From an uncultured archaeon (GTDB taxonomy: Archaea; Asgardarchaeota; Thorarchaeia; Thorarchaeales; Thorarchaeaceae): a DNA stretch of 64,000 nt. Of the stretch, positions 28,524 through 42,444 are shown in pieces; position 1 is the stretch's first letter; each line of letters begins with the position of its first letter. A program made the translations under genes and the position numbers. The DNA lies in the NCBI GenBank assembly GCA_964610875.1, contig CAZSWP010000008.1, positions 1 to 64,000 of the forward strand. The letters are read 5' to 3'. The notes under the pieces are model-generated. The model did not search any database. It saw nothing but the letters and a program-made list of their open reading frames with translations, and had not been told where the DNA came from.

Positions 28524-29981
28524 ATGAGGGACCTAGTAGAGCTCGCTCTAGAAGAATGTGTAAAGCATGGTGCGACTTATTCTGATATGCGAATCGTAAC
28601 TATTCGTGATGAGGATATCTCCATCAAATCAGGAAATATTGAGACGATGCAACTCGGCCAAGAAGTGGGATTTGGGATTCGATGTATAGCAGATGGCGGC
28701 TGGGGCTTTGCAGGCTCATTTGATATTGCAAAATATGAAATTAAACGCGTTGCAGAACTTGCAGTTAGAATAGGCAAAGCTTCTGGTTCAACTCGTAAGC
28801 AACCTATTGAACTAGTTGATGAAAAGGCAATTGAGGATTCATACAGCACGAAGTTCAAGAAGGATCCCTTCAAAGTTCCTGCAGAGGAGAAGCTCGAAGT
28901 ATTGGTGGAGGCCGATAAAAGACTTCGAGAGTATGATAATGCAATCAAAGTAACAACTGCTGATTATCATGGTCATTCTGAGGAAAAAATATTCAGTAGT
29001 TCTGAAGGTGCGTATATCACTCAGAAAATCATCTGGTGTGGAGGTGGATTTTCCTGCCTTGCTGCATCGGCAGGATCTCGTCCACAAAGAAGGTCATATC
29101 CAGGGTCCTTTCGTGGAGATTTCTCCACCAGTGGATATGAGTTCTTTGAATCACGAGAGATTCTTGAAAATGTGGATCGAATTGCCTCAGAAGCAATAGA
29201 TCTCACGAAAGCAAAACAATGCCCCTCTGAAAAGACTACGCTATTAATTGATGGTCACCAGTTGATGTTACAGATCCATGAGAGTTGTGGTCATCCAACT
29301 GAATTAGATAGAGTCCTAGGAACAGAGGCAGCATATGCTGGTACTAGTTTCATGACCACTGACAAGCTCGATAAACTCAAGTATGGAAGCAAAGATGTTA
29401 CACTTGTTGCTGATTCCACATTAGAAGGTGGTCTTGGTACTTTTGGGTACGATGACGAAGGTGTCAAGGCAAAACGTGTTGAACTCGTTAAGAATGGTCT
29501 CTTCGTTGGATATCAGAGTTCCCGGGAGACTGCAGCACTTATTGGTCTCTCTAAGAGTTCTGGTGGGATGCGAGCAGATAGCCCACAAAAACTCCCTCTA
29601 ATACGAATGGTGAATATCAACCTTGAACCCACTGATTGGAAACGTGATGACATAATTGCTGACACAAAGAAAGGTATTCTCATGTCTACAAACAAGAGCT
29701 GGAGTATTGATGATAAACGTTTGAACTTCCAATTTGGGACAGAGATTGCTTGGGAGATTGTGGATGGGGAAATTGGTAAGATTCTCAAGAATCCTACATA
29801 TACGGGAATTACACCTGAGTTTTGGGGAGGTATGGATGCATCCTCAAAGGACGATTGGAGATTGTGGGGAACACCGAATTGTGGGAAGGGACAGCCTGGA
29901 CAAGTGATGTATGTTGGACATGGATGTGGAACTGCTAGGTTCCAGAATGTACGAGTTGGAATAATGAAGGAGGGCAATTAA
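28524..29981 (+). CDS. tldD: TldD family metalloprotease subunit
   Basis: GFGIR, HESCGHPTELDR (HExxGH), YDDEG, RM.NI, NCGKGQP. Confidence 0.93.
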   Translation: MRDLVELALEECVKHGATYSDMRIVTIRDEDISIKSGNIETMQLGQEVGFGIRCIADGGWGFAGSFDIAKYEIKRVAELAVRIGKASGSTRKQPIELVDEKAIEDSYSTKFKKDPFKVPAEEKLEVLVEADKRLREYDNAIKVTTADYHGHSEEKIFSSSEGAYITQKIIWCGGGFSCLAASAGSRPQRRSYPGSFRGDFSTSGYEFFESREILENVDRIASEAIDLTKAKQCPSEKTTLLIDGHQLMLQIHESCGHPTELDRVLGTEAAYAGTSFMTTDKLDKLKYGSKDVTLVADSTLEGGLGTFGYDDEGVKAKRVELVKNGLFVGYQSSRETAALIGLSKSSGGMRADSPQKLPLIRMVNINLEPTDWKRDDIIADTKKGILMSTNKSWSIDDKRLNFQFGTEIAWEIVDGEIGKILKNPTYTGITPEFWGGMDASSKDDWRLWGTPNCGKGQPGQVMYVGHGCGTARFQNVRVGIMKEGN

Positions 29982-29982
29982 G

Positions 29983-31365
29983 ATGAAATCACAAAGAGAG
30001 ATATTGCTAGAAAAAGCTAAACTGGTCATCAAGGAAGCTGAGAAAGCGGGTGCCACTCAAACACAAGCCAGTGTGAAACTCATTGACCTCAAACTAACAA
30101 GACTAGCAAATAGCATCATTGATCAAAACGTTGCAGAACGTCATGCAAAAGTCAAAGCTATTTTGTATTTTGGACAACAGAAAGGTTCTGTTGAGTATGA
30201 AGTCTTTCAAGATACTGAAATCAGAAACCTCGTTCAGATGGCTGCAAAGATTGCCAAGATTTCCCCAAAGAACGCAGACTTTGAGTCCCTACCAACACCA
30301 AAGCCTTACTCATCTCAGCTAGATGCTAGTGTTCTGACTAGCAAGAACACATTGAATGTGACTCCTGAAATGCGGGCTGAGGCTGCTTTAGAAGCAATCA
30401 AATCAGCACATAATGTCGATGATAGAATATCTGCGGTTGCTGGGGCAATATATCATTCAACTACTGAACATGTGATTTGTAATTCATTAGGAATCGAAGC
30501 TTACGAAATGCGTACCAGTAGCGAGATAGAGATAACAACCCTTGCAACTGATGGGAGTGAAGAAACGGCAGGATGGGCTTGTGATTCAAGCAGAGATTTC
30601 AATGATTTGAAAATATCTGATGTAGCAAGAGTAGCAGCTGAAAAGGCTGCAAATGGATTTGGAATGAAAGATCTAGAACCTGGAGAATATGAAGTAGTTC
30701 TTGAACCAGCTGCTGTAGCAGGTCTTATGCTCTATATCAGTTATACTGCCTTTGGAGCTAAACAGTATCAGGAATACATGAGTTTTCTCCGTGATCGTCT
30801 TGGAGAGAAAATGTTCTCTGAAAAACTCTCTATGTATGATAATGCACTTGATACGAGATTGGTTCATGCTTCCCGGTTTGATGAAGAGGGCGTTCCCCAT
30901 CAAAAAGTGGATTTGATAGTGGATGGAGTAGTTATGGGACTTGTCTACGATTCATTAACAGCAACTAAGGACGGTGTTGAAAGCACAGGAAATCACGCTC
31001 AGGTCTGGGGTCCGCCAAGACCAATGGCCAGACACTTGATTGTAAATAGTGGTAATTCATCAGTTGATGAAATGATTGAAGAAACTGAGAAGGGTGTGCT
31101 TGTAACGCATTTCCATTACATGAACCCTGTAAACCCAACTGAAGGAGTCTATACAGGATTGACAAGAGATGGTGCATGGTATATAGAAAATGGGGAAATC
31201 CAATATCCATTAAGGACATTGAGATTCACTGATGCTGCTCCTAGATTCTTCAATGAAATCGATATCATTGGTGAATATCCGGAATTTAGAAGTCAACCAC
31301 CATTTGGCTTGATGCCTTCGATGAAACTGCCTTCATTCAGATTCTCAGGTTCAAGCAAACATTAA
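29983..31365 (+). CDS. pmbA: TldE/PmbA family protein
   Basis: TRLANS, PGEYEVVLEPAAV, FDEEG, STGNH, TGLTRDG; lacks HExxH; adjacent to tldD. Confidence 0.9.
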   Translation: MKSQREILLEKAKLVIKEAEKAGATQTQASVKLIDLKLTRLANSIIDQNVAERHAKVKAILYFGQQKGSVEYEVFQDTEIRNLVQMAAKIAKISPKNADFESLPTPKPYSSQLDASVLTSKNTLNVTPEMRAEAALEAIKSAHNVDDRISAVAGAIYHSTTEHVICNSLGIEAYEMRTSSEIEITTLATDGSEETAGWACDSSRDFNDLKISDVARVAAEKAANGFGMKDLEPGEYEVVLEPAAVAGLMLYISYTAFGAKQYQEYMSFLRDRLGEKMFSEKLSMYDNALDTRLVHASRFDEEGVPHQKVDLIVDGVVMGLVYDSLTATKDGVESTGNHAQVWGPPRPMARHLIVNSGNSSVDEMIEETEKGVLVTHFHYMNPVNPTEGVYTGLTRDGAWYIENGEIQYPLRTLRFTDAAPRFFNEIDIIGEYPEFRSQPPFGLMPSMKLPSFRFSGSSKH

Positions 31366-32482: not shown

Positions 32483-32842
32483 CTAATATCCCCATTCCTG
32501 CCCAAGTCTTTGACGATACCATCTCTGACCTCGTTTAGTCAAAGAATACTCGCTCATCATCTCTTGGATTAATCCCATATCGATCATGCTTTGGATAACG
32601 TTGTAGAGCTTGTCGTCTGAGGCGCCTGTTGCACTTTTCAATCGCTGAAAGCTCATTTTTCCGTCACGTTTGATAGCTTGTGCTATCTCGAATTTTCCAA
32701 CAGCTTTGGTTTCTTCCCTAACAATGATGTGTCCGCAGTTGGTGCAGAGCAAGTCGCCTTTCATATCGTCTCTGGCAACTTCTTTCCCACCGCAGACAGG
32801 GCAGGTCGTCTTTGAAAATCTTAGTGAACGTCTGTGTGACAT
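32483..32842 (-). CDS. TFIIB-type Zn ribbon + winged-helix protein
   Basis: CPVCG...DDMKGDLLCTNCGHI followed by a wHTH ending GLI...YSLTKRG. Confidence 0.8.
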   Translation of the reverse strand: MSHRRSLRFSKTTCPVCGGKEVARDDMKGDLLCTNCGHIIVREETKAVGKFEIAQAIKRDGKMSFQRLKSATGASDDKLYNVIQSMIDMGLIQEMMSEYSLTKRGQRWYRQRLGQEWGY

Positions 32843-32913
32843 GACAACCATATGGTCCAGAAATATGGTCTTGATAAAGATAACGAAGGTGTACCTTTTT
32901 TATATGTGAAAAA

Positions 32914-33417
32914 CTACTGTTCACCAGATAGTCTTCTAAAGAATCGTTCATAATCCACTTCAAATGAAACACGAGCACCGGGTTGCACTTGATCTGATTT
33001 ACGGTCGTACTCTACATATCCCATATCTCGTAACTCTCGAATGTCATCCAATACACTTCTTCTACTCTTTCTTCTAAACTCACGTACTCTATTAACACTC
33101 ACTGCTTTGCCTTCTTGATATACAAGTGTGATGATAATCAGGAGTGTTGCTGCTAATCTATCAGGAAGTTGTGTATCTTCAATTACATCATCAAGCTTTG
33201 AGTGCGTATCAAGATGAAATACTTTTGAAACTGGATTGAATCGAACTTTCAGTCCAATAGGTTCAAGTTTTTTCTCCAATTCTCCAAGACGCTTGAATAG
33301 AACATGTTTACCAACATCATCGGGTAGTCCCAATGCATCCAACATGTCTTCTACTCCAGCTCCGATTGGATTTCCGGACTGAGTCAATAATCGGAGAAGA
33401 ATTGCGTATTCGTTCAT
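32914..33417 (-). CDS. KITE (ScpB/Nse1/Nse3-like) tandem winged-helix subunit
   Basis: Two WH-like halves (LEKKLEPIGLKV; LAATLLII...IRELRDMGYVE); downstream of smc and the kleisin gene on the same strand. Confidence 0.65.
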   Translation of the reverse strand: MNEYAILLRLLTQSGNPIGAGVEDMLDALGLPDDVGKHVLFKRLGELEKKLEPIGLKVRFNPVSKVFHLDTHSKLDDVIEDTQLPDRLAATLLIIITLVYQEGKAVSVNRVREFRRKSRRSVLDDIRELRDMGYVEYDRKSDQVQPGARVSFEVDYERFFRRLSGEQ

Positions 33418-33591
33418 TCCTTGCTCTTTCCTCTTTTCTTCCCTGTACAGAGAGTAAATTAAACTAGTGGATTATTGACGCACTACTGAAATGCCTACCC
33501 AGATAGTAACAATTTGTGACCTACTTGTGTGACCCCATATCGTGGCTTTGCATTATATACTAATTCTGAGTGTTATGTATTGTGAACAAAA

Positions 33592-33702
33592 ATGGCACTA
33601 GCAAGCAACTCACGAAATCGGGACGCAAGCAAGAAGATTGATGCAAAAGTGGTTCCCTCCACAAGAGCAATCGTTTACGCTTACACTACTATTAATAGAT
33701 GA
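33592..33702 (+). CDS. Candidate 36-aa small protein
   Basis: TTATATA at 33553; GTGAACAAAAATG start context identical to hppA; MALASNSRNRDASKKIDAKVVPSTRAIVYAYTTINR; strong hairpin after the stop. Confidence 0.4.
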   Translation: MALASNSRNRDASKKIDAKVVPSTRAIVYAYTTINR

Positions 33703-33740
33703 GGTTGAGAGAATGAGTAATTCTCATCTCAACCTATCTA
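33696..33740. terminator. Long inverted repeat between the small ORF and the kleisin stop
   Basis: TAGAT-G-AGGTTGAGA ... TCTCAACCT-ATCTA with inner TGAG/CTCA; T-run follows on the + strand. Confidence 0.55.
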
Positions 33741-34376
33741 TCTCTTTTTTCTAACAGTTTTTTTTTCAGGATTAAATGTCAAGACTCCTTTTGATATCAG
33801 AATCACAACATAAAGGAAAAATTTTAGGAATTCATCAAAGTCCTCACTTGAAGTCAAATCTACAAGTAGAACGTCTTTATCCAGTGGAATCCGATCCGCA
33901 AATTCTGTGAGGTCCGCTTCAAATACTGATTCTTCCGTTTCAAATAGAAATCCACTGACATCGGAAAGTGTAGGTGGTGGACTGTCATCATCATCTTCAG
34001 CTGTCATTGCCTCTATGTGTTCCAATACCCTTGTGTTTGCTTCTGATAACGAATCGTATTCCAATCTTCCAAGCACTATTGGATGATTATATGCAATCAT
34101 CTTCGAAAGCTGCCGAATGTCCTTCTCTTTGATTTTTTCGACATATATTTCTGGTGAGGCTAAAATCCTAGCCAGTTCTTGAGCTCTGCTGACCTTGGTT
34201 TCAAGTACTTCGTTTAGCATTTGATCTAAATCGATTCGTGTCTTTATCTTACTACGAATAGCTCGTAGTTCTTGATATGCATCTAGAAGCCTGATGTCAA
34301 GTGGGTCAACTTCACCTGATTCAATTTGAGTGACGATATCCTTGACCAGTTTTGTGACTTGTCTTGATGTAGACAA
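33738..34376 (-). CDS. Kleisin (ScpA-like) subunit
   Basis: SGEVDPLDIRL resembles the ScpA IDPWDID motif; C-terminal WH with F..FL.VVILISKG; TTG start just after the smc stop, with GAGGTG. Confidence 0.7.
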   Translation of the reverse strand: MSTSRQVTKLVKDIVTQIESGEVDPLDIRLLDAYQELRAIRSKIKTRIDLDQMLNEVLETKVSRAQELARILASPEIYVEKIKEKDIRQLSKMIAYNHPIVLGRLEYDSLSEANTRVLEHIEAMTAEDDDDSPPPTLSDVSGFLFETEESVFEADLTEFADRIPLDKDVLLVDLTSSEDFDEFLKFFLYVVILISKGVLTFNPEKKTVRKKR

Positions 34377-34380
34377 AATT

Positions 34381-37300
34381 CTAGACCCCCACCTCGCCCG
34401 CAAATCGTGGGCTCTCGATGATGACCGACGGGTCTGTTCCTCCAGGAGATACTACACCAAGGCGCTTGTCAGCATGCTTCAGTAGATGTGTACTCTTTGC
34501 TGGGGTAAATAGAATGAATTGACTTCTCCTAGAAGAATCATGAAGAAGACGACTCACTATCTCTGTATTTGTTGCGTCTAGAAATGTATCGATTTCGTCC
34601 ATTGCATAGACGGGGGCTGGATTATGTCTTTGTAATGCGAGAATAAGACCAATTGCAATTAAAGACCTCTCGCCTCCAGAACCCGAGCTGATACTCTTGT
34701 ACTCTTCACTTTTTATCTTCGATTTGAACTCCACACCGTATTCTTGGCTGAACATAGAGAGTTCAAATCTCACGGTGCCTACAAATCCAACATTGTTCAG
34801 GATGTTGTTTACTTCATTCTCAATTCCACGGAGGGTTTCGTTCATCCCATTGTGGTATTGATCTTTGATATTTGTCAGGGTTTCTTCAGCTTCAACTAAC
34901 TCTTCTCCAATCTCAGAGATCTTGATACTTAGGGAGTCCATTCTTGATTTGAGTTGGTCTTCAGTATGAGCTACCGTTTCCGAAACATCTTGATAATCAT
35001 CAAGTAATGTCTTTACTCTCAGTAGTGCTTCCCTGACCTTCTCGATAGGGCGCAGTTGATTCGGTCTAGTTTTACCAGTGAGTCGTTGTTGTGATTCCTC
35101 AAGTTCTTGTTGATAATTACTCAACTGTCGTTTAGACTGCATCAAATGGAGTCTGTCTGTTTTTGCTTGTACGTTTAATTCAAGTAATTCTTCGTTTAGT
35201 GTCCGTATTGCCGTTGCTAATTCGATTTGCTGCTTTCGTAGATTATCAATTTGTGAGTCAATCTTATCTTTTCCATCTCTTAGTTCTTCAATTGTCTGCA
35301 CGATAATGGACCCTTCACTCTTAGACGATTTGATTTCTTCTCGAAGCTCAGTAAGACTCGAACCTAATACGTCAATTGATCCATTGCATTGTTTCAACTC
35401 TTGTCTCCATAAGCTCTCATTTCTATCAGTTTCATGAAGTTTTGATAATGTGTCATTGAGTTCTTGCTGGACTCTTCTTTGCTTCATTTTGATAGCTGAC
35501 TTCTGACCAACAAGTCTACTTCTCTCAGGAGGTTGACTGCTGTCAAGTTTTCTCAATTCACGTTCAGCCTTTCCAAGCTTCTCTTGTAGCTTCTTGAGTT
35601 CATCATCGAGTGTAAAAATCCTCTCTTGGTCTGCTGGTATTGACTCGAGGAGTTTCTTTCTCCGTTCCCAAGTGCCACTCCATCGCGTTAGTTGTCCCAA
35701 AAGCTCCATTACTTGCTCTCTTTCTTCAGTTGCCTTTTCTAGCTTTGACATTATTGAAGTGATTTCTTTTCGGGTAGAAGCAAGCTCAGTTTCTGCAGAA
35801 GTAAGACGTTTTTGTATTGGTGCTGTTGAGATGATACCACTGGGTTTAGGTTTTGGTCTGCTGACAACTCTATGTTCATTGACCATTCTTACATATCCGT
35901 CTGTAGTTACGACACTTGCACCAAGTTTTTCCACAATGCGTTTTGCAGTTCTTTCATTTTCAACAAGAACGATTGGTCCTATTGCTTGATTTAGTTTCTC
36001 CTTTAGTTCATCATCAAGTTCCAACTCATCCCAAAGCCATCCTCTGACTCCTTTCCATTCTGGAAGATTTGGCATTCCTACTTGTTTGTTAGTTATGTGA
36101 AGAATTGGTGAAGGAGCATCAATATTCTCTCTTAGTTTTTCAAGCAATGCATATTCTACTGGGTCTTCTACAATGAAGGCATAAACCAGATTCTCAATCA
36201 AGACCGCCTCTAAAACCTGCGATAAATCTCCTCCTATCTGTAAGAGTTCGACAAGTGGTCCTTTCACAGATGTCAGAGAGTGCTCTTCAATTGCTTCTCT
36301 CAGAGACCTTACTTCTTCAGGTATCCTGTGTGCAGTTTCGCTAAGTTTGAGTCGAAGATCGTCAATCTCCTTCTGTAGTTGTGAAACTCTGGTGTTCTCT
36401 TGAAACCGTCTTTCATTCAAAGAAGCTATATCCCTCTCCAAATGTGCTTTCTGTAAAACTAAGTCTTTTTCATCGGTTGTTTCGAGCACAGACCAGACAT
36501 GACCCCATTTGTTCTCAATCGTTTCTAATTCTGCTTGATCATTTTGTACTTTCTCCTTTATACTCCGTAGGAGAAGGTCCTTTCCTCGAATATCGGTCTG
36601 GAGTGCGCGATATGTGCCATGTGCTTCAGCACGACGAGTATTCCATTCAGCAAATTCTGTCAGTTCTGCTTCTATCTTACTTAATTCATCTTCATTTTCG
36701 GCAATACTCTCTTCGAGACTCTTTTTCTTATCTTCAAAACGTTCCTTGGCAGTGACAGCATGTCGTAAATCGTCTGTTAGTTTCTTTTTCCTTCGTTCTT
36801 GTTTACTAACACGTTGTTGTAACTCTCCAAGCTCCACTGCGAGTTTCTTATCTTCTTCTTTTAGTTTTGAGAGTCGTCTCTCTTCTTCATCAATTCTCGC
36901 ATTTATTGATCCAAACTCATTCTGTAATCCTTCAAGTTCTTTCGAAATGTGGGACGAATCGGTTTCTTTGACACTGATTTGGTCTTCGAGAGTAGTCACT
37001 TTTTCAATTATTTCTCCAAGTCCAAGTTCTTTATCTTCCAGTTCTGCTTTTAGTGTATCAATTTTGCTTATGAGGTCCACTTCTGTAGCCCAGAGTAGTT
37101 CCTCTTCGATTTGCTGTTCTTCCCTTCTTAACTCACGTTTTCGTTTAAGTCGCGAAATATCATGTTGTAGCAATTCAAGCTCGCGTTCGACCATTGCAGC
37201 TTCGTTCGAAACTTCGATGAGTCGTTCTTTACTTGTTGAAACTCTAGATTCTTCCAATACTATGCGGTCCCTTACTACAGACAGCCCCGTTCCTTCTTCA

Positions 37301-37755
37301 ACCAGTTTTCTAATCTCTACAGGGTCTGTATCTCTTATTGCATTTATCCGCTCTTGTGGCATAAAGACCAACGGATTATCCACATCAAATCCTAGTTTGT
37401 CTACCATTGAATGGAGCTCTGCAGCTTTTACTCTTTTGCCGTCAATGTATGCCCTCGGTATTCCATCCCTACTTATTTTTCGGACGAAAGAAATCTTGCG
37501 TTGTCCGACATCTACTACGAGTTCTACTTCTGCAGAACTGGCACCATGTCTTACAAAATCACTCCATTTCGAATAGCGATTCTCTCGTTGATTAGAGCCT
37601 AAAGCAAACTTGATTGCGTGAAAGATAGATGTCTTTCCTGAACCATTGGGACCAAAGACCACTGTAAGACCTGGATCAAACTCTACCTTGCCATCATAGA
37701 AACTAAGGAAGTTCCTGAGTTTAACCGATGAGATTTCTACGTTAGAGTTTGGCAT
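34381..37755 (-). CDS. smc: SMC ATPase, Smc5/6-related type
   Basis: GPNGSGKTS, Q-loop DNPLVFMPQE, coiled coils, hinge (KGPL..LL...AFIVED), SGGERS, MDEIDTFLD, QFILFTP. Confidence 0.9.
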   Translation of the reverse strand: MPNSNVEISSVKLRNFLSFYDGKVEFDPGLTVVFGPNGSGKTSIFHAIKFALGSNQRENRYSKWSDFVRHGASSAEVELVVDVGQRKISFVRKISRDGIPRAYIDGKRVKAAELHSMVDKLGFDVDNPLVFMPQERINAIRDTDPVEIRKLVEEGTGLSVVRDRIVLEESRVSTSKERLIEVSNEAAMVERELELLQHDISRLKRKRELRREEQQIEEELLWATEVDLISKIDTLKAELEDKELGLGEIIEKVTTLEDQISVKETDSSHISKELEGLQNEFGSINARIDEEERRLSKLKEEDKKLAVELGELQQRVSKQERRKKKLTDDLRHAVTAKERFEDKKKSLEESIAENEDELSKIEAELTEFAEWNTRRAEAHGTYRALQTDIRGKDLLLRSIKEKVQNDQAELETIENKWGHVWSVLETTDEKDLVLQKAHLERDIASLNERRFQENTRVSQLQKEIDDLRLKLSETAHRIPEEVRSLREAIEEHSLTSVKGPLVELLQIGGDLSQVLEAVLIENLVYAFIVEDPVEYALLEKLRENIDAPSPILHITNKQVGMPNLPEWKGVRGWLWDELELDDELKEKLNQAIGPIVLVENERTAKRIVEKLGASVVTTDGYVRMVNEHRVVSRPKPKPSGIISTAPIQKRLTSAETELASTRKEITSIMSKLEKATEEREQVMELLGQLTRWSGTWERRKKLLESIPADQERIFTLDDELKKLQEKLGKAERELRKLDSSQPPERSRLVGQKSAIKMKQRRVQQELNDTLSKLHETDRNESLWRQELKQCNGSIDVLGSSLTELREEIKSSKSEGSIIVQTIEELRDGKDKIDSQIDNLRKQQIELATAIRTLNEELLELNVQAKTDRLHLMQSKRQLSNYQQELEESQQRLTGKTRPNQLRPIEKVREALLRVKTLLDDYQDVSETVAHTEDQLKSRMDSLSIKISEIGEELVEAEETLTNIKDQYHNGMNETLRGIENEVNNILNNVGFVGTVRFELSMFSQEYGVEFKSKIKSEEYKSISSGSGGERSLIAIGLILALQRHNPAPVYAMDEIDTFLDATNTEIVSRLLHDSSRRSQFILFTPAKSTHLLKHADKRLGVVSPGGTDPSVIIESPRFAGEVGV

Positions 37756-37774
37756 TCCAATATTCCTCAGTTTA

Positions 37775-38830
37775 TTATCGGCCCATTATTCTGCTCAATC
37801 TATCTAGACTTCTTTTAGCTCTCATAAGACGAGTAAGTCTGTCATCTGGTTCTCCCTGTAATAGAAAGGGATAGTTATTCAGTAGAATTCTATCTTCTGC
37901 TGATAGGGGTAGGTTCGAATTGAGTGTTTCAATCACCTGTTGTACGCCCTGAAAGTTCTCGCTTACTGCCATGAGGTAAAGTTGATCAAGAAAGTCATCT
38001 GGATATACTGATTCAACACTCTTCAACCCTGGTGAAAATGATCCAGAAGTACGTTTTGCAATTGCATCTAAAGATTCCTTCCTGCCTAGAGGTACAACTC
38101 CTGATTCTCTAACTCGCTTTTCAAGTTCCTCTTTAGTAACTGGTTCTTTTTCATCTTTTCCTCGCAAAAGGAGTGAAGTTGCTAGATGTAGTGAATCAGT
38201 GAAAGTCCATCCCTCCGTGACCCCGGCCAATAGTCTTGGTTGAATCGACTTAAAGCCCTCCAAGGACTCTTCAAACAAGCGAACTCTATCCTCAATCTCT
38301 GAGGCATCAAAAATGTAAGTATGGTCAAAGAGAGAGAGGATGTGTCTATCAATGTCCTCTGGTTGGGTTGTACAAGCAATGACTAGGACTTCATCATCCA
38401 CCCATGATGTTTCTTTAAGCTCCATTTCTAACACGGCTGCGTAAACAGACTCTCGCTTTCCAAGTAGTTCCAGTCGTGATATATAGAGAATAGCTGGTGA
38501 GTTTCTTCTGGCAAACTCAATACCTGCAGTAATGGATTCTGGTAGAGTCTCCAAATTTTGCAGAATATCTCTCATCCGGAAACTAATTGTCTTCAAGGGC
38601 ATCTCGATAGCAATTTTTTGCGAAAAAGCATCGAAATCGGTACCGGCCGGTCCACAAAGCAGAACCCTTCCACCAAAAGATAGCGTTGTCTTTGCTCCAC
38701 TCTGTACTTTTTGGAGCATATTGTAGTACTCTTCGGCCTTTTTCATGACTGAATACTGTTTTGGCCTTTCTGAGCTGACTTCTTCTGGCTCATATATGGT
38801 GACGGGCTCGGTAAACTTGTCTCTACTCAA
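37775..38830 (-). CDS. AAA+ fold protein with degenerate Walker motifs
   Basis: RVLLCGPAGTDFD (no GKT), FARRNSPAILYISRLE (no DE), VLVIACTTQPEDID, GWTFTD. Confidence 0.7.
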   Translation of the reverse strand: MSRDKFTEPVTIYEPEEVSSERPKQYSVMKKAEEYYNMLQKVQSGAKTTLSFGGRVLLCGPAGTDFDAFSQKIAIEMPLKTISFRMRDILQNLETLPESITAGIEFARRNSPAILYISRLELLGKRESVYAAVLEMELKETSWVDDEVLVIACTTQPEDIDRHILSLFDHTYIFDASEIEDRVRLFEESLEGFKSIQPRLLAGVTEGWTFTDSLHLATSLLLRGKDEKEPVTKEELEKRVRESGVVPLGRKESLDAIAKRTSGSFSPGLKSVESVYPDDFLDQLYLMAVSENFQGVQQVIETLNSNLPLSAEDRILLNNYPFLLQGEPDDRLTRLMRAKRSLDRLSRIMGR

Positions 38831-38984
38831 TTGAAAACCCCGGCAGACTTGCTTGCAGAAATTCCAAAGGTAGGTATATTACCTCTTTGGAGTGTGTGTT
38901 TCTTCCGCGCCGTATAAAACGCGCCTCATACCGTGAATGCCATAAGTGTTTATCACAAGCACCTACGGGACGATGTGAAAAAGC

Positions 38985-40700
38985 ATGAGCAGCAGTTCTG
39001 AACGACTTAGGTCTCTCATCTGGGAAATCATTAGTACAGTGGAGAGTAGGGGTCTTTTCGTTCATTCTTCTGACTTAGAGCTACGGTATAAAGAGAGTGA
39101 GCGGACAAGTAGTAGAGCATCAATCACAAGATTACCACTTATTGTAGGTAGTTGTGTCTTGAACGCTCTCGTTCCAAGGTCTGCAATGCTTCTTGTAGGT
39201 GGACATGGGGGAGGCAAAACAACTTTGCTAAAAATCCTTGGAAGAATGCTTACGGGAAGCAGTCTTGAGGCCATAGAGGAAGGTATGCTTAGAGGACATC
39301 CACAACTGACAGAAGAGAAGATGGTTGCCACTTTACGTCCCGGTCCATTGATGAAGGAAGGTCTTGAGGTAATTGTCTGGAGAAAGTTCGTGCTTGATTT
39401 TTGGAAGATTATTGATGAAGTAAACAGACTCACTCCTCACGCACAAAATATCCTTCTCTCTCTACTCGCAGAAGGTGAATTGAAATATTATGATGAAGTG
39501 AAACGCTGCGAAGAATACTGTCTTTATGCCACAATGAACCCTACAGACTCCGGCACATTTGATATGGCTCCTCCTTTCATGGACAGGTTTGGTATTGCTG
39601 TACCCATAACAATGCCAACTATTGATGATCTTGAGTTGATTCTCTCCTCTCGTGATGAACGGCTATTTGGATATGATCAATTATGGCAAGTTCCTGCTAT
39701 CACTAAAGAAGAGGACTTGTTGACTATATGGAATCTAGCTGATAAGGTCACAGTGTCTGAGGAAGCATCAGAATTCATGCGCTGTCTTGTCCGAGAGTTT
39801 GGTGCATGTATCCGTTCAGACAAAAGCCAAGCTCAGGGTCTTACAGTTGAGAACGGTCTCTGTGATGGCTGTCATTTCAATACCACCAAGAGCATTTGCA
39901 ATAAGGTGATAATCCCACTGAGTGTGCGGGCGGCAAAGGATTTGAACCGCTACTGTAAAGCTGCTAGTTGGCTAGTGGGAGCCGCAGAAGTCGGTGTAGA
40001 GATGGTCAAATCTATTGCTCCTTTGGTATTTTGGCATAGAACTAGATTTGTCAGAGATATTCTTGAGAAAGCCCCATTTTACGGTGATGTATTTGCAGTT
40101 ACTCAACATCTGATGGAGCAGGCTGCAAATAGATTTGCCCAGCGTGAACCTGCATTGAAACTCATGAGGAAGCTTGCTGAAGGTAGAGCAAAGAAAGAAG
40201 AGGTTGAAGAGCTCAAACAAATGGGAAAGAGTGATCTGCTAGTACGACTAGATTTTATGGCTCTGGCTAAAGACTTGAAGACATCTAAATACAGAAAGAT
40301 TGTCAAGAGAGTTGAGAAGGCTATTAATTCCAAAGATGTTGTAGAATTATCCACATTGCACAAAGAATTGTTGGAGAACACAGATATTCCAAATAGAAGT
40401 GGACTACTCAGTCGAGTCTATGAAGTACTTCACAAACTCACTCTTACACAACTCACACTCACATTCGAAAAATGGCAAGATGTTTGGATGACAATAAGCA
40501 TGAGTTTCCCGAAGACCACCATCATACTAAAAGAAACATTGAAGCCACCAAAGAGGCGAGTCATCCGGACAGATGGTCTCATGTTAGTAGTGTATGTCAC
40601 TGGGGATAATCCGGAGTCTCCAGTTTTTCTAGAGATATCCGGAGGAGCGAGTGCACAGAAGCTTTGCAAAGCAGTGCAGGAACAGATTAGTGAGGTGTAG
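38985..40700 (+). CDS. MoxR-like AAA+ ATPase with 4-Cys insertion
   Basis: GGHGGGKTT, IIDEVNR, QNILL, ATMNP, DRF, LSVRA; C..CxxC..C cluster just before sensor II. Confidence 0.85.
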   Translation: MSSSSERLRSLIWEIISTVESRGLFVHSSDLELRYKESERTSSRASITRLPLIVGSCVLNALVPRSAMLLVGGHGGGKTTLLKILGRMLTGSSLEAIEEGMLRGHPQLTEEKMVATLRPGPLMKEGLEVIVWRKFVLDFWKIIDEVNRLTPHAQNILLSLLAEGELKYYDEVKRCEEYCLYATMNPTDSGTFDMAPPFMDRFGIAVPITMPTIDDLELILSSRDERLFGYDQLWQVPAITKEEDLLTIWNLADKVTVSEEASEFMRCLVREFGACIRSDKSQAQGLTVENGLCDGCHFNTTKSICNKVIIPLSVRAAKDLNRYCKAASWLVGAAEVGVEMVKSIAPLVFWHRTRFVRDILEKAPFYGDVFAVTQHLMEQAANRFAQREPALKLMRKLAEGRAKKEEVEELKQMGKSDLLVRLDFMALAKDLKTSKYRKIVKRVEKAINSKDVVELSTLHKELLENTDIPNRSGLLSRVYEVLHKLTLTQLTLTFEKWQDVWMTISMSFPKTTIILKETLKPPKRRVIRTDGLMLVVYVTGDNPESPVFLEISGGASAQKLCKAVQEQISEV

Positions 40701-40710
40701 CACCATTCCC

Positions 40711-42444
40711 TTGAAAATTCCTTGGCGTGAAACAAGTTCAGGAAAGAACTTTACAGAAGTCGCAAAAACGGCGTGGGAACGGGCAAAATCTGATTTCTAT
40801 CATCCCCCCATCCCAGAACCCATCATTGAAACTGATGAAACGGCATCTAGTTTTTTCTACATTGATGCGGAAACTTGGACTGTTCATCTCAATCTAACAG
40901 GTGTTCCTTTACATCTTGACTCCACTGAAGCTGAGTCATTCTTACGTTCAATATGTCATCATGAAATTCAGCATTACCTTGTTTGTCCTTTTGATGGTGT
41001 TACAAATGGACTGATGTTTTCTGGTGCGAGAAGACATCTCTCTGACAGCTTGGCCATGTTTACATGTAATCTATTCGCTGACTTGGTGGTAGACTCTCAT
41101 CTCCTTAGAAGATATCCCTCATTAACTCACAATCGAGTAAAGGCATCAATATTTGATGCGTCCATTAGAACTAGAGAACACTCAGATATCTGGAGACTTG
41201 TTGTTGCTACTTATCGAAAAATGTGGGGGTATCCTATTCCTACAGGTATCCAGATAGATGAAACCACATTTTCAGCTGCACAGGAAATAGTAGAAGTCGC
41301 TCGTAAGTATATCAACAGAGAACAAAAGTGGCCTCTAGCTGTGAGAAAGATTGCTAAGATAATAGACGATTGGTTAGAGGATCATGAAGACTTCTCTTCA
41401 TGTATGCCTTCTTCGGATGGGGGACAAGATGGAACAGACTCTGATTCAACAATGGTCGTAAACATACCCTTGGACGTAGATACTGTGATGGGTGACCCAC
41501 TTCAAGAAAGAAATGGTGATGTTGCGAAGAGATGTCTTGAACATGATCAAGTAAAAGACGCAGAGCAAGAACTTGAACGCTTAGCAATTGAAGTAGAAGA
41601 ACGTGGAGGAGATCTTGAGGATCTTGAGTCAGTGTTCATGTTATATGGTGCTGGAACTGAGCGGGGTGAATGGACAAGGTTCTGGTATAGGGCAAAGGCA
41701 CAGAATCTCCTCAAGTTCTCTGTAAAACATATGCGTCATCACGGAGCAACACCTCTCTCTCCAAATGTTTGGCGACTTGGTGACCCTATTGAGGAATTGG
41801 ATGTTGTTCAATCATTACAGGCTTTCCCTGTTCTTGTGCCTAATATGTCGACTCGTAGATGGCTTAAGACCGAGATAATTGGTCTTGAGGAGTCAAAAAC
41901 TCTTCCTGACCTTCTTCTAGTTCTTGATTCAAGCGGCTCGATGTCTTGGTCGCGAAAAGGTCGTAATCTATCGGGGAGTTTCCATCTTGCTCTTGTATCA
42001 GCTTTTGCAGCTCTTGATTATGTAATAAAGAAGGGATGTAGAGTGGCTGCAATCAATTTTTCTGTAGACCTTACTCAATGTGAATGGACAAAGGATAGAA
42101 TGGAACTTGAACACACTCTTCTTGCGTACGAAGGTGGAGGTACTGTTATCCCTATCAACCAGATCTCTGAATTATGTACATCAGCAACTGACCGAGTGAT
42201 GGTCCTAGTCATATCTGATGCACAAATATCAAACTGGCACCCATTTGTGAAAAGGATGAAAGACCTCACATCTAGAGGACATGAGCTGTTCTTATTCCAT
42301 ATTGGGTCAAGAAGTAAGACGCCATCAAAACGTATAGCAGATTTGGTCAAATCGGGTGTTGAAGTTATTCCTGTTTCTTCAGTCAAGGATCTACCCGACT
42401 TAGTTATCGGTGAAGTGCATCGGAAATATGAGAATGCGGAATAG
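40711..42444 (+). CDS. vWA-domain protein with N-terminal HEXXH metallopeptidase-like domain
   Basis: HHEIQH, NLFADLVVD; MIDAS DSSGSM...GGT...ISDA; follows the MoxR gene; start uncertain. Confidence 0.85.
   Translation: MKIPWRETSSGKNFTEVAKTAWERAKSDFYHPPIPEPIIETDETASSFFYIDAETWTVHLNLTGVPLHLDSTEAESFLRSICHHEIQHYLVCPFDGVTNGLMFSGARRHLSDSLAMFTCNLFADLVVDSHLLRRYPSLTHNRVKASIFDASIRTREHSDIWRLVVATYRKMWGYPIPTGIQIDETTFSAAQEIVEVARKYINREQKWPLAVRKIAKIIDDWLEDHEDFSSCMPSSDGGQDGTDSDSTMVVNIPLDVDTVMGDPLQERNGDVAKRCLEHDQVKDAEQELERLAIEVEERGGDLEDLESVFMLYGAGTERGEWTRFWYRAKAQNLLKFSVKHMRHHGATPLSPNVWRLGDPIEELDVVQSLQAFPVLVPNMSTRRWLKTEIIGLEESKTLPDLLLVLDSSGSMSWSRKGRNLSGSFHLALVSAFAALDYVIKKGCRVAAINFSVDLTQCEWTKDRMELEHTLLAYEGGGTVIPINQISELCTSATDRVMVLVISDAQISNWHPFVKRMKDLTSRGHELFLFHIGSRSKTPSKRIADLVKSGVEVIPVSSVKDLPDLVIGEVHRKYENAE

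What the first reader, a model, noticed from the sequence alone, without database searches (positions are those of the whole stretch)
32483..42444. Smc5/6-type SMC-kleisin-KITE locus coupled to a pseudo-AAA and a divergent MoxR + metallopeptidase-vWA pair
Seen: minus-strand order is dead AAA+, SMC (19-bp gap), kleisin (4-bp gap), KITE, Zn-wHTH; a 154-bp divergent region leads to a MoxR ATPase and a HEXXH-vWA protein. The SMC shows Smc5/6-like hallmarks (DNPLVFMPQ, DEIDTFLD, QFILFTP in place of the H-loop ITH, hinge lacking the GX6GX3GG motif). Established: Smc5/6-related proteins occur in archaea; Smc5/6 and Wadjet restrict extrachromosomal DNA; MoxR-vWA pairs remodel client proteins. Inference: a larger chromosome-organisation or DNA-surveillance system in which the AAA-like protein is an extra subunit and MoxR/vWA-peptidase loads, unloads or cleaves the ring (separase/Wss1-like logic). 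No JetD-like Toprim nuclease is visible, so it is not a canonical Wadjet.
Basis: partly seen in the sequence, partly recalled or inferred. Interest (0 to 1): 0.8.

Follow-up and report, generated by a model that had tools for sequence, protein, structure and literature searches.

The report
Asgard second SMC operon with partners
A Thorarchaeota genome carries the already published second (SMC5/6-related) chromosome-ring operon, but it starts with an undescribed dead AAA gene and sits beside a MoxR ATPase and a zinc-motif/vWA adaptor that track SMC genes across Asgard archaea, hinting at unknown helpers that handle SMC rings.

Summary
The genome also has a canonical Smc-ScpA-ScpB operon on another contig. 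The window therefore holds the second, divergent SMC-kleisin-KITE operon that two papers already call 'SMC5/6-related'.

Two things are not in the papers I searched:
- A Cdc48-type AAA protein directly precedes this SMC in 37 of 39 Asgard loci. It has GTD in place of the P-loop GKT in every lineage aligned.
- A MoxR-class ATPase and its vWA partner (intact MIDAS, N-terminal HExxH) occur in the same ten Asgard families as this SMC type, and were not found in four tested families that have only canonical SMC.

The MoxR-vWA pair lies next to SMC genes in three different arrangements:
- divergent in Thorarchaeota;
- one co-directional operon in Jordarchaeia and a further family;
- convergent beside the canonical SMC-ScpB in some Lokiarchaeia.

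In most Lokiarchaeia the pair is unlinked to any SMC gene.

The context is housekeeping, with no nuclease and no match to known defence systems, so a Wadjet-like reading is unlikely. Physical or functional coupling, and any kleisin cleavage, remain inference.

This scan had already reached the same reading on at least seven other Asgard genomes.

The parts
32483..32851 (-). Zn-ribbon (C4, TFIIB-type) plus winged-helix protein, 122 aa. Follows KITE in Thorarchaeota and the sister family.
   Evidence: Pfam Zn_Ribbon_TF 6.3e-8, above its cut-off; weak wHTH hits. 64-75% identical across Thorarchaeota, with an invariant C-terminal tail. Stays with KITE even where another gene separates KITE from kleisin.
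32914..33417 (-). KITE-like tandem winged-helix subunit, 167 aa
   Evidence: Sits after the kleisin in 30+ loci. hhalign against Asgard ScpB: probability 47%, E 2e-4 over 142 columns. Among 24 orthologues, 3 match Pfam SMC_ScpB, 1 matches DUF4194 and 13 match HVO_A0114. No structure was predicted.
33418..33737 (.). ORF-free 320-bp spacer between kleisin and KITE. It holds a roughly 150-nt element (33501-33649) repeated elsewhere in the genome.
   Evidence: Six-frame translation shows no ORF. blastn finds 78% identity over 152 nt at C47:10346-10494 and C3:30328-30476. In other Thorarchaeota this junction is tight, or holds an inserted MFS transporter gene.
33738..34376 (-). Kleisin, 212 aa, TTG start 4 nt after the SMC stop
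   Evidence: hhalign against canonical Asgard ScpA: probability 94%, E 1.4e-7 over 181 columns, from the N-terminal helices to the C-terminal winged helix. Weak profile hits to Pyrococcus ScpA C-terminal domains. Start codon read.
34381..37755 (-). Second-type (SMC5/6-related) SMC ATPase, 1124 aa
   Evidence: Pfam SMC_N 1.8e-40 and SMC_hinge 1.2e-5. TIGR02168 scores 260 bits, below its 567 cut-off. 23% identical to the canonical SMC of the same genome. Walker A, Q-loop, signature and Walker B motifs are intact; Q1079 and P1085 are invariant in 17 orthologues.
37775..38830 (-). Cdc48-type pseudo-AAA with a conserved C-terminal helical domain, 351 aa (TTG start)
   Evidence: Pfam AAA 1e-6. Profile against PDB: Cdc48/p97/VAT, 1.8e-34. 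AF2 model pLDDT 85; Foldseek top hits are Vps4, FtsH, VCP and Msp1 at E about 1e-11. GTD replaces GKT in all 21 aligned sequences. Directly upstream of this SMC type in 37 of 39 loci.
38831..38984 (.). 154-bp divergent intergenic region with two A/T-rich TATA-like boxes (about 38875-38880 and 38913-38919)
   Evidence: Read directly from the sequence. No repeat elsewhere in the genome. Promoter function is inferred only.
38985..40700 (+). MoxR-class AAA+ ATPase, 571 aa, with an invariant Cys3-His cluster and a C-terminal extension
   Evidence: Pfam AAA_5 4e-12 and AAA_lid_2. Profile against PDB: 2r44, a MoxR-family protein, 1.8e-15. Walker A and B intact; C275, C293, C296, H297 and C305 invariant in 21 sequences. 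44-72% identical across Asgard classes.
40711..42444 (+). Adaptor with an N-terminal HExxH helical domain and a C-terminal vWA/MIDAS domain (about 578 aa from TTG 40711; the ORF is open from 40651)
   Evidence: 18 of 20 orthologues match Pfam VWA_2. DxSxS..T..D is invariant. AF2 model pLDDT 78; the vWA domain reaches Z 18.6 and matches NorD among others. HExxH lies on the helix that follows a 3-strand sheet. The fold of the N-terminal domain was not identified.

Best explanation
The minus-strand genes encode the Thorarchaeial form of the Asgard 'second' SMC complex: an SMC homodimer closed by a kleisin that carries KITE winged-helix subunits. It is a housekeeping chromosome-maintenance ring, paralogous to the canonical Smc-ScpAB that the same genome also has.

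Its operon opens with a catalytically dead, Cdc48-derived AAA module that carries a conserved C-terminal helical domain. This gene is tightly spaced with, or overlaps, the SMC gene. I read it as a fixed accessory subunit or regulator of this ring (inferred). In Thorarchaeota a small Zn-ribbon/winged-helix protein travels with KITE and probably adds DNA or partner contacts (inferred).

The divergently transcribed MoxR ATPase and its vWA partner form a separate, Asgard-wide conserved two-gene unit. By analogy with NorQ/NorD-type pairs, the vWA MIDAS site would grip an acidic residue of a client and the MoxR ring would supply ATP-driven pulling. I propose that the client is an SMC complex, during assembly, loading, opening or removal (inferred from gene linkage and co-occurrence only). 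Whether the HExxH domain cuts anything is open.
For: Core complex:
- SMC domains and intact ATPase motifs.
- Kleisin homology to ScpA: probability 94%.
- KITE-like tandem winged-helix protein.
- A separate canonical Smc-ScpA-ScpB operon at C10.
- Published trees place such second operons of TACK and Asgard archaea with SMC5/6.
- The profile of this SMC type scores yeast Smc5/6 at 161-167 bits. The canonical Asgard profile leaves them outside its top 60, whose lowest score was 68 bits.

Pseudo-AAA:
- Present directly upstream in 37 of 39 loci spanning SMC identities from 58% down to 24%.
- Start-stop overlaps or gaps of mostly 1-23 nt.
- Dead motifs in all lineages aligned.
- Cdc48/Vps4-type fold.

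MoxR-vWA:
- The pair is always together.
- It is found in families f1, f2, f5, f15, f20, f21, f22, f23, f26 and f27, which are the families that have this SMC type.
- It was not found in f4, f14, f16 and f29, where the one genome tested per family has only canonical SMC.
- It is adjacent to pseudo-AAA-SMC in all Thorarchaeota loci with enough flank.
- It is co-directional as MoxR-vWA-pseudoAAA-SMC-kleisin-KITE in Jordarchaeia and f5.
- It is convergent next to canonical SMC-ScpB in 5 of about 36 Lokiarchaeial loci from two families.

Context: flanking genes are metabolic and there is no defence-system match.
Against: - No direct evidence of binding or activity.
- In most Lokiarchaeia the MoxR-vWA pair lies among unrelated housekeeping genes (HAD hydrolase, GatC, CoA ligase, peroxiredoxin), far from either SMC.
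- Families f26/f27 keep the pair and the SMC-kleisin-KITE genes but lack the pseudo-AAA, and have lost HExxH.
- One f12 genome has this SMC type but no MoxR hit (85% complete).
- Related genomes are not independent, so co-occurrence counted by family overstates the support.
- By raw profile score this SMC still matches Smc2/3/4 better than Smc5/6.
- More distant relatives of the MoxR-vWA pair sit beside other large P-loop proteins and a nuclease. The module can therefore serve other clients.
Confidence: 0.55

Rival explanations
1. The MoxR-vWA pair is functionally independent of SMC. It would be a conserved Asgard chaperone for some other client (for example metal-cofactor insertion or another complex). 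Its position next to SMC genes would then be inherited synteny or shared cell-cycle regulation, not a working partnership. The pseudo-AAA would still belong to the SMC operon.
For: - The pair is a self-contained unit, always together, and unlinked to SMC in about 31 of 36 Lokiarchaeial loci.
- It evolves much more slowly than the SMC genes: 44-49% against about 25% identity between classes.
- Known MoxR-vWA pairs serve many unrelated clients (abstracts listed).
- Distant relatives sit beside other proteins.
Against: - Three different gene orders place the pair next to SMC genes, with two different SMC paralogues and in at least four families. Inheritance of a single arrangement does not easily explain this.
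- Family-level co-occurrence with this SMC type.
- No other conserved neighbour emerges in Lokiarchaeia.
Confidence: 0.3
2. The whole cluster is a DNA-surveillance or anti-plasmid system in the manner of Wadjet, or of Smc5/6 restriction of extrachromosomal DNA. The MoxR/vWA/HExxH pair would act as its effector or activator.
For: - SMC-kleisin-KITE architecture is shared with Wadjet.
- One KITE orthologue matches DUF4194, the JetB family.
- Weak JetC and LmuB head similarity.
- More distant MoxR-vWA relatives lie beside large P-loop proteins and a PD-(D/E)xK nuclease, a layout typical of conflict systems.
Against: - No nuclease in or near the locus.
- No PADLOC match for kleisin, KITE, pseudo-AAA, MoxR or vWA.
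- Single copy, found in 69 of 85 genomes of the family, many of them incomplete, with stable gene order. Defence systems are usually patchy.
- Neighbours are metabolic genes. In f26/f27 the operon continues into the primase large subunit gene.
Confidence: 0.08
3. The pseudo-AAA is not an SMC subunit. It would be the substrate-recruiting or regulatory partner of the MoxR-vWA machine, in the way Mg-chelatase subunit D joins a dead AAA module to a vWA domain. On this reading the SMC linkage is secondary.
For: - Gene order MoxR-vWA-pseudoAAA in Jordarchaeia and f5.
- Weak NCBIfam similarity of the MoxR protein to chelatase I and D subunits.
Against: - The pseudo-AAA stays directly upstream of the SMC in Lokiarchaeia, where MoxR-vWA is elsewhere.
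- f26/f27 keep MoxR-vWA without a detectable pseudo-AAA next to either gene set.
- The pseudo-AAA belongs to the classical Cdc48 clade, not the chelatase/MoxR clade.
Confidence: 0.07

Closest known systems
Archaeal 'SMC5/6-related' SMC-kleisin-kite operons of TACK and Asgard archaea (van Hooff, Raas, Tromer, Eme, bioRxiv 10.1101/2024.01.07.573240; Yoshinaga and Inagaki 2021, PMC8665677)
   Same: A second SMC paralogue with its own kleisin and kite in one operon, alongside a canonical Smc-ScpAB operon in the same genome. That is exactly the situation here.
   Different: Neither paper's main text, nor the supplements held for the first, mention an AAA gene, MoxR or vWA next to these operons. The pseudo-AAA, the Zn-ribbon/wHTH protein and the MoxR-vWA linkage are additions.
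Eukaryotic Smc5/6 with Nse4 (kleisin) and Nse1/Nse3 (KITEs)
   Same: SMC-kleisin-KITE architecture. Hinge without the glycine motif. The profile of this SMC type scores Smc5/6 far better than the canonical Asgard profile does.
   Different: One SMC gene, so presumably a homodimer. No Nse2, Nse5 or Nse6 equivalent was recognised. Kleisin and KITE gave no Nse4, Nse1 or MAGE match by Pfam or PDB profile search. Raw scores are still higher to Smc2/3/4.
MoxR AAA+ / vWA chaperone pairs (NorQ-NorD, RavA-ViaA, CbbQ-CbbO) and Mg-chelatase BchI/BchD
   Same: An active AAA_5-type ATPase encoded next to a MIDAS-bearing vWA partner. NorD is among the structural matches of the vWA domain.
   Different: The ATPase is 571 aa, with an invariant Cys3-His cluster and a long C-terminal extension. 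The partner carries a roughly 370-residue HExxH helical domain with no Pfam family. The proposed client is an SMC ring rather than a metalloenzyme.
Wadjet (JetABCD) / MksBEFG
   Same: An SMC-like ATPase with kleisin and KITE subunits encoded together with extra partners.
   Different: No JetD/MksG Toprim nuclease. Only weak JetC similarity. Housekeeping distribution and context.
Cdc48/p97/VAT and Vps4 (classical-clade AAA+)
   Same: The pseudo-AAA has their fold and lid, and its profile matches Cdc48 at 1.8e-34.
   Different: A single AAA module with neither the Walker A lysine nor the Walker B acidic pair. It has no N-domain but an added conserved C-terminal three-helix domain.

Membership tests
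SMC protein | Split ABC-type head with Walker A, Q-loop, signature motif and Walker B, separated by long coiled coils | tested here: met
   Pfam SMC_N 1.8e-40 spans residues 8-1102. GPNGSGKT at 35, Q134, SGGE at 1026 and DE at 1053-1054 are all conserved in 17 orthologues.
SMC protein | Central hinge domain | tested here: met
   Pfam SMC_hinge 26.1 bits against a cut-off of 22.5, residues 496-607. The GX6GX3GG motif is absent in 17 of 17 orthologues.
SMC5/6-related archaeal SMC (second paralogue) | A paralogue distinct from the canonical archaeal SMC that coexists in the same genome | tested here: met
   Canonical Smc-ScpA-ScpB lies at C10:69197-74064; the two SMCs are 23% identical. Loci in other Asgard classes score higher to this SMC than to the canonical one.
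SMC5/6-related archaeal SMC (second paralogue) | Groups with eukaryotic Smc5 and Smc6 in a phylogeny | not testable with these tools
   No eukaryotic SMC sequences could be brought into a tree. As a proxy, the profile of this type scores Smc5/6 at 161-167 bits, whereas the canonical profile leaves them outside its top 60, whose lowest score was 68 bits. It still scores Smc2/3/4 higher, at 232-243 bits.
Kleisin | N-terminal helical domain and C-terminal winged helix homologous to ScpA/Nse4/Rad21, encoded next to its SMC | tested here: met
   hhalign against Asgard ScpA: probability 94%, E 1.4e-7, 181 columns. Encoded 4 nt after the SMC stop. No Nse4-specific match was found.
KITE (ScpB / MukE / Nse1-Nse3 type) | Tandem winged-helix protein homologous to known KITEs | tested here: inconclusive
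   hhalign against ScpB: probability 47%, E 2e-4 over both winged-helix regions. Pfam ScpB in 3 of 24 orthologues and DUF4194 in 1 of 24. No structure was predicted.
Classical-clade AAA+ ATPase | AAA fold with lid | tested here: met
   Foldseek hits to Vps4, FtsH, VCP and Msp1 at E about 1e-11. Cdc48 profile match 1.8e-34.
Classical-clade AAA+ ATPase | Catalytic Walker A GK[ST] and Walker B hhhhDE | tested here: not met
   GPAGTDFD and LYISRLE in the window protein. GTD or further-degenerated motifs in all 21 aligned sequences. It is a pseudo-ATPase.
MoxR AAA+ ATPase | AAA_5-type module with intact Walker motifs and an adjacent vWA partner | tested here: met
   AAA_5 4e-12. 2r44 at 1.8e-15. 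GGHGGGKTT and IIDEVNR are invariant. The vWA gene is adjacent in all loci with enough sequence.
vWA / MIDAS domain | vWA fold with DxSxS, T and D metal-site residues | tested here: met
   Z 18.6 to solved vWA domains. D389, S391, S393, T461 and D486 are invariant in 20 sequences.
Zincin metallopeptidase | HExxH on an active-site helix, plus a third ligand, in a recognisable zincin fold | tested here: inconclusive
   HExxH (window HHEIQH) lies on helix 54-73 after a 3-strand sheet, followed by an invariant P-x-D. No Pfam or PDB match for the N-terminal domain, and the fold searches were filled by the vWA domain. The motif is lost in f26/f27.
Wadjet (JetABCD) | JetD Toprim nuclease encoded with the SMC-kleisin-KITE genes | tested here: not met
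   No such gene in the locus or its flanks. No PADLOC match for the six non-SMC proteins beyond one weak CARF winged-helix hit on the Zn-ribbon protein.

The most novel reading that the evidence does not exclude
The MoxR ATPase and its HExxH-vWA adaptor are a dedicated ATP-driven machine that opens, unloads or proteolytically dismantles SMC rings in Asgard archaea, with the dead Cdc48-like AAA as the docking subunit on the SMC5/6-related complex. That would be a prokaryotic counterpart to eukaryotic ring-release and separase/Cdc48-type pathways.
Probability: 0.2. Interest if true: 0.85.

Novelty: new variant of a known kind. Interest (0 to 1): 0.6.

Why it matters
SMC5/6 is the least understood eukaryotic SMC complex, and Asgard archaea are the closest known prokaryotic relatives of eukaryotes. 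The core archaeal operon is published. A conserved dead AAA subunit, and a remodelling ATPase pair that tracks SMC genes, would be new accessory factors.

If they act on the ring, they offer a simple prokaryotic system for a long-standing question in the SMC field: how SMC rings are loaded, opened or removed. They would also show that such regulation predates eukaryotes. The proteins are small enough for reconstitution, so the idea can be tested directly.

Tried and rejected
- Complex prediction of the pseudo-AAA against the SMC head halves plus kleisin gave no verdict (score 0.00, controls not run). It says nothing either way.
- A PDB search with only the last 59 SMC residues, meant to compare the H-loop region with Smc5/6, returned only chance CD4 hits.
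- Kleisin and KITE profiles gave no significant PDB hit and no Nse4, Nse1 or MAGE Pfam hit.
- The fold of the HExxH domain could not be identified.
- The 439-483 aa gene upstream of MoxR in f26/f27 is not a pseudo-AAA relative (hhalign probability 0.3%).
- The homologue search with the pseudo-AAA profile listed only Asgard-labelled proteins, almost all named Thorarchaeota. It therefore says nothing about TACK archaea.
- Cluster look-ups gave no organism names for distant MoxR relatives.
- Rejected as a reading: a canonical Smc-ScpAB (that operon is on contig C10), and a Wadjet system (no nuclease).

Full report
**What is there.**

Minus strand:
- a 351-aa AAA-like protein (37775-38830);
- 19 nt later, an 1124-aa SMC (34381-37755);
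- 4 nt later, a 212-aa protein starting at TTG 34376;
- after a 320-bp ORF-free spacer, a 167-aa protein (32914-33417);
- a 122-aa Zn-ribbon/winged-helix protein (32483-32851).

Plus strand, across a 154-bp divergent spacer:
- a 571-aa AAA_5/MoxR-like ATPase (38985-40700);
- a vWA protein that ends at 42444. Alignment with orthologues and the codons present point to a start at TTG 40711 or GTG 40690.

**The organism and the second SMC.** Homologues are named Thorarchaeota, and the genome belongs to the Asgard phylum.

The same genome has a better-scoring SMC on contig C10. That SMC is followed by genes matching Pfam ScpA (1e-8) and ScpB (3e-31). The window SMC is only 23% identical to it. So the window holds a second SMC operon.

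Two papers already describe such second SMC-kleisin-kite operons in TACK and Asgard archaea and place them with eukaryotic SMC5/6. I could not bring eukaryotic sequences into a tree, so I used a proxy:
- A profile of 17 window-type SMCs scores yeast Smc5 and Smc6 at 161-167 bits, and Smc2/3/4 at 232-243 bits.
- A profile of four canonical Asgard SMCs scores Smc1-4 at 354-428 bits. It leaves Smc5/6 outside its top 60, whose lowest score was 68 bits.

This fits the published label but is not a phylogeny, and the two profiles differ in depth. The hinge glycine motif is absent in 17 of 17 window-type sequences, and the canonical SMC of the same genome has it. Q1079 and P1085 are invariant at the place where the canonical Lokiarchaeial SMCs carry the H-loop ITH.

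**Kleisin and KITE.**
- The 212-aa protein family aligns with canonical Asgard ScpA at hhalign probability 94% (E 1.4e-7, 181 columns), from the N-terminal helices to the C-terminal winged helix.
- The 167-aa family aligns with ScpB only weakly (probability 47%, E 2e-4). A few members match Pfam ScpB or the Wadjet KITE family DUF4194.
- Neither family gave an Nse4, Nse1 or MAGE match.

**The pseudo-AAA.**
- Its profile matches Cdc48/p97/VAT at 1.8e-34.
- The AF2 model (pLDDT 85) is closest to Vps4, FtsH, VCP and Msp1.
- In all 21 aligned sequences, from Thor-, Jord- and Lokiarchaeia and others, the P-loop reads GTD or worse instead of GK[ST], and the Walker B acidic pair is missing.
- The best-conserved part is a C-terminal three-helix domain (residues about 278-348).
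- The gene lies directly upstream of the window-type SMC in 37 of 39 loci, mostly 1-23 nt away or overlapping. These loci include lineages whose SMC is only 24-28% identical.

This is an old, fixed member of the operon. The papers I searched do not mention it.

**The MoxR-vWA pair.**
- The ATPase has intact Walker motifs and an invariant Cys3-His cluster. Its nearest solved relative is a MoxR-family protein.
- The partner has an invariant MIDAS site and a clear vWA fold (Z 18.6; NorD is among the matches).
- Its N-terminal 370 residues carry HExxH on a helix that follows a small sheet. No family or fold match was obtained for this domain. The motif is lost in two families.

**Linkage of the pair to SMC genes.**
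- All 20 first loci from the Thorarchaeial family and its sister family have the full arrangement. So do the Thorarchaeota loci found from the MoxR side, wherever the contig reaches far enough.
- In Jordarchaeia and family f5 all genes run in one direction: MoxR, vWA, pseudo-AAA, SMC, kleisin, KITE.
- In Lokiarchaeia the pair is always together but usually lies among unrelated housekeeping genes.
- In 5 of about 36 Lokiarchaeial loci, from two families, the pair lies tail-to-tail with the canonical SMC-ScpB genes.
- Across 400 Asgard genomes the MoxR orthologue occurs in ten families. These are the families that carry the window-type SMC, once the divergent SMCs of f26/f27 are typed with profiles.
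- In four families without the pair, the one genome tested per family has only the canonical SMC. One fragmented f12 genome is an exception.
- Related genomes are not independent, so these counts are descriptive only.

**How it probably works.** I take the core as a housekeeping SMC ring of the SMC5/6-related type, with the pseudo-AAA as a fixed partner (confidence about 0.65 for that partnership).

The MoxR-vWA pair most likely remodels SMC complexes. The MIDAS site would bind an acidic residue of a subunit, and the ATPase would pull on it (about 0.4-0.45). The kleisin linker is strongly acidic.

Cleavage by the HExxH domain is possible but has no support. It cannot be universal, because the motif is lost in f26/f27.

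A defence role is unlikely for four reasons:
- there is no nuclease;
- the six non-SMC proteins gave no PADLOC match beyond one weak CARF hit on the Zn-ribbon protein;
- the flanking genes are metabolic;
- the cluster is single-copy and was found in most genomes of its lineages.

**Wider family.** 184 clusters match the MoxR profile at 1e-30 or better. The more distant relatives keep a vWA partner but sit beside large uncharacterised P-loop proteins. In one case they also sit beside a PD-(D/E)xK nuclease. The two-gene module can therefore serve different large clients. This fits a general remodeller role, but it also warns against assuming that SMC is the only client.

**Earlier notes of this scan.** After forming this reading I found that follow-up agents had reached the same conclusion on at least seven other Asgard genomes. 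My results agree with theirs. One of them was more cautious about the MoxR-vWA link, and I keep that caution as the main rival.

**Verdict.** This is a new variant of a known kind: a published core operon with undescribed conserved partners whose mechanism is still only inferred.

Noticed in passing
window 33501-33649 (inside the kleisin-KITE spacer): A roughly 150-nt segment is repeated at 78% identity on two other contigs of the genome (C47:10346-10494 and C3:30328-30476). It may be a small mobile element or a conserved non-coding element.
   Followed up: partly
L011:12113-13453, L014:2495-3943, L009:12068-13252: In several Thorarchaeota an MFS transporter gene on the opposite strand is inserted between kleisin and KITE. 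KITE plus the Zn-ribbon protein then form their own unit. The kleisin-KITE junction seems to tolerate insertions.
   Followed up: partly
G000 contig C10:70474-74064 (locus L168): The canonical SMC of this genome reads QFVVVSL where the canonical Lokiarchaeial SMCs read ITH. The H-loop histidine is therefore also missing in the Thorarchaeial canonical SMC.
   Followed up: no
L177:82-10531 and L173:740-11565 (metagenome contigs): Distant relatives of the MoxR-vWA pair lie in operons with uncharacterised P-loop proteins of 1123 and 1699 aa. In L177 there is also a PD-(D/E)xK 'REase-ARP' nuclease. These look like candidate conflict systems built on the same module.
   Followed up: partly
L169:3749-10402 and the matching genes in L170-L172: In Asgard families f26/f27 the divergent SMC-kleisin-KITE genes have no pseudo-AAA. 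In L169 they are followed in the same direction by the primase large subunit and a ThiF-family gene; same-sized genes follow in L170-L172 but were not annotated.
   Followed up: partly
window 28524-31365: A tandem pair of TldD/PmbA-type metallopeptidase genes lies upstream of the cluster. It was not seen to travel with the cluster.
   Followed up: no
KITE orthologues (alignment A2): 13 of 24 KITE-like proteins match the recent Pfam family HVO_A0114, named after a Haloferax plasmid gene. That family may be an unrecognised KITE group.
   Followed up: no
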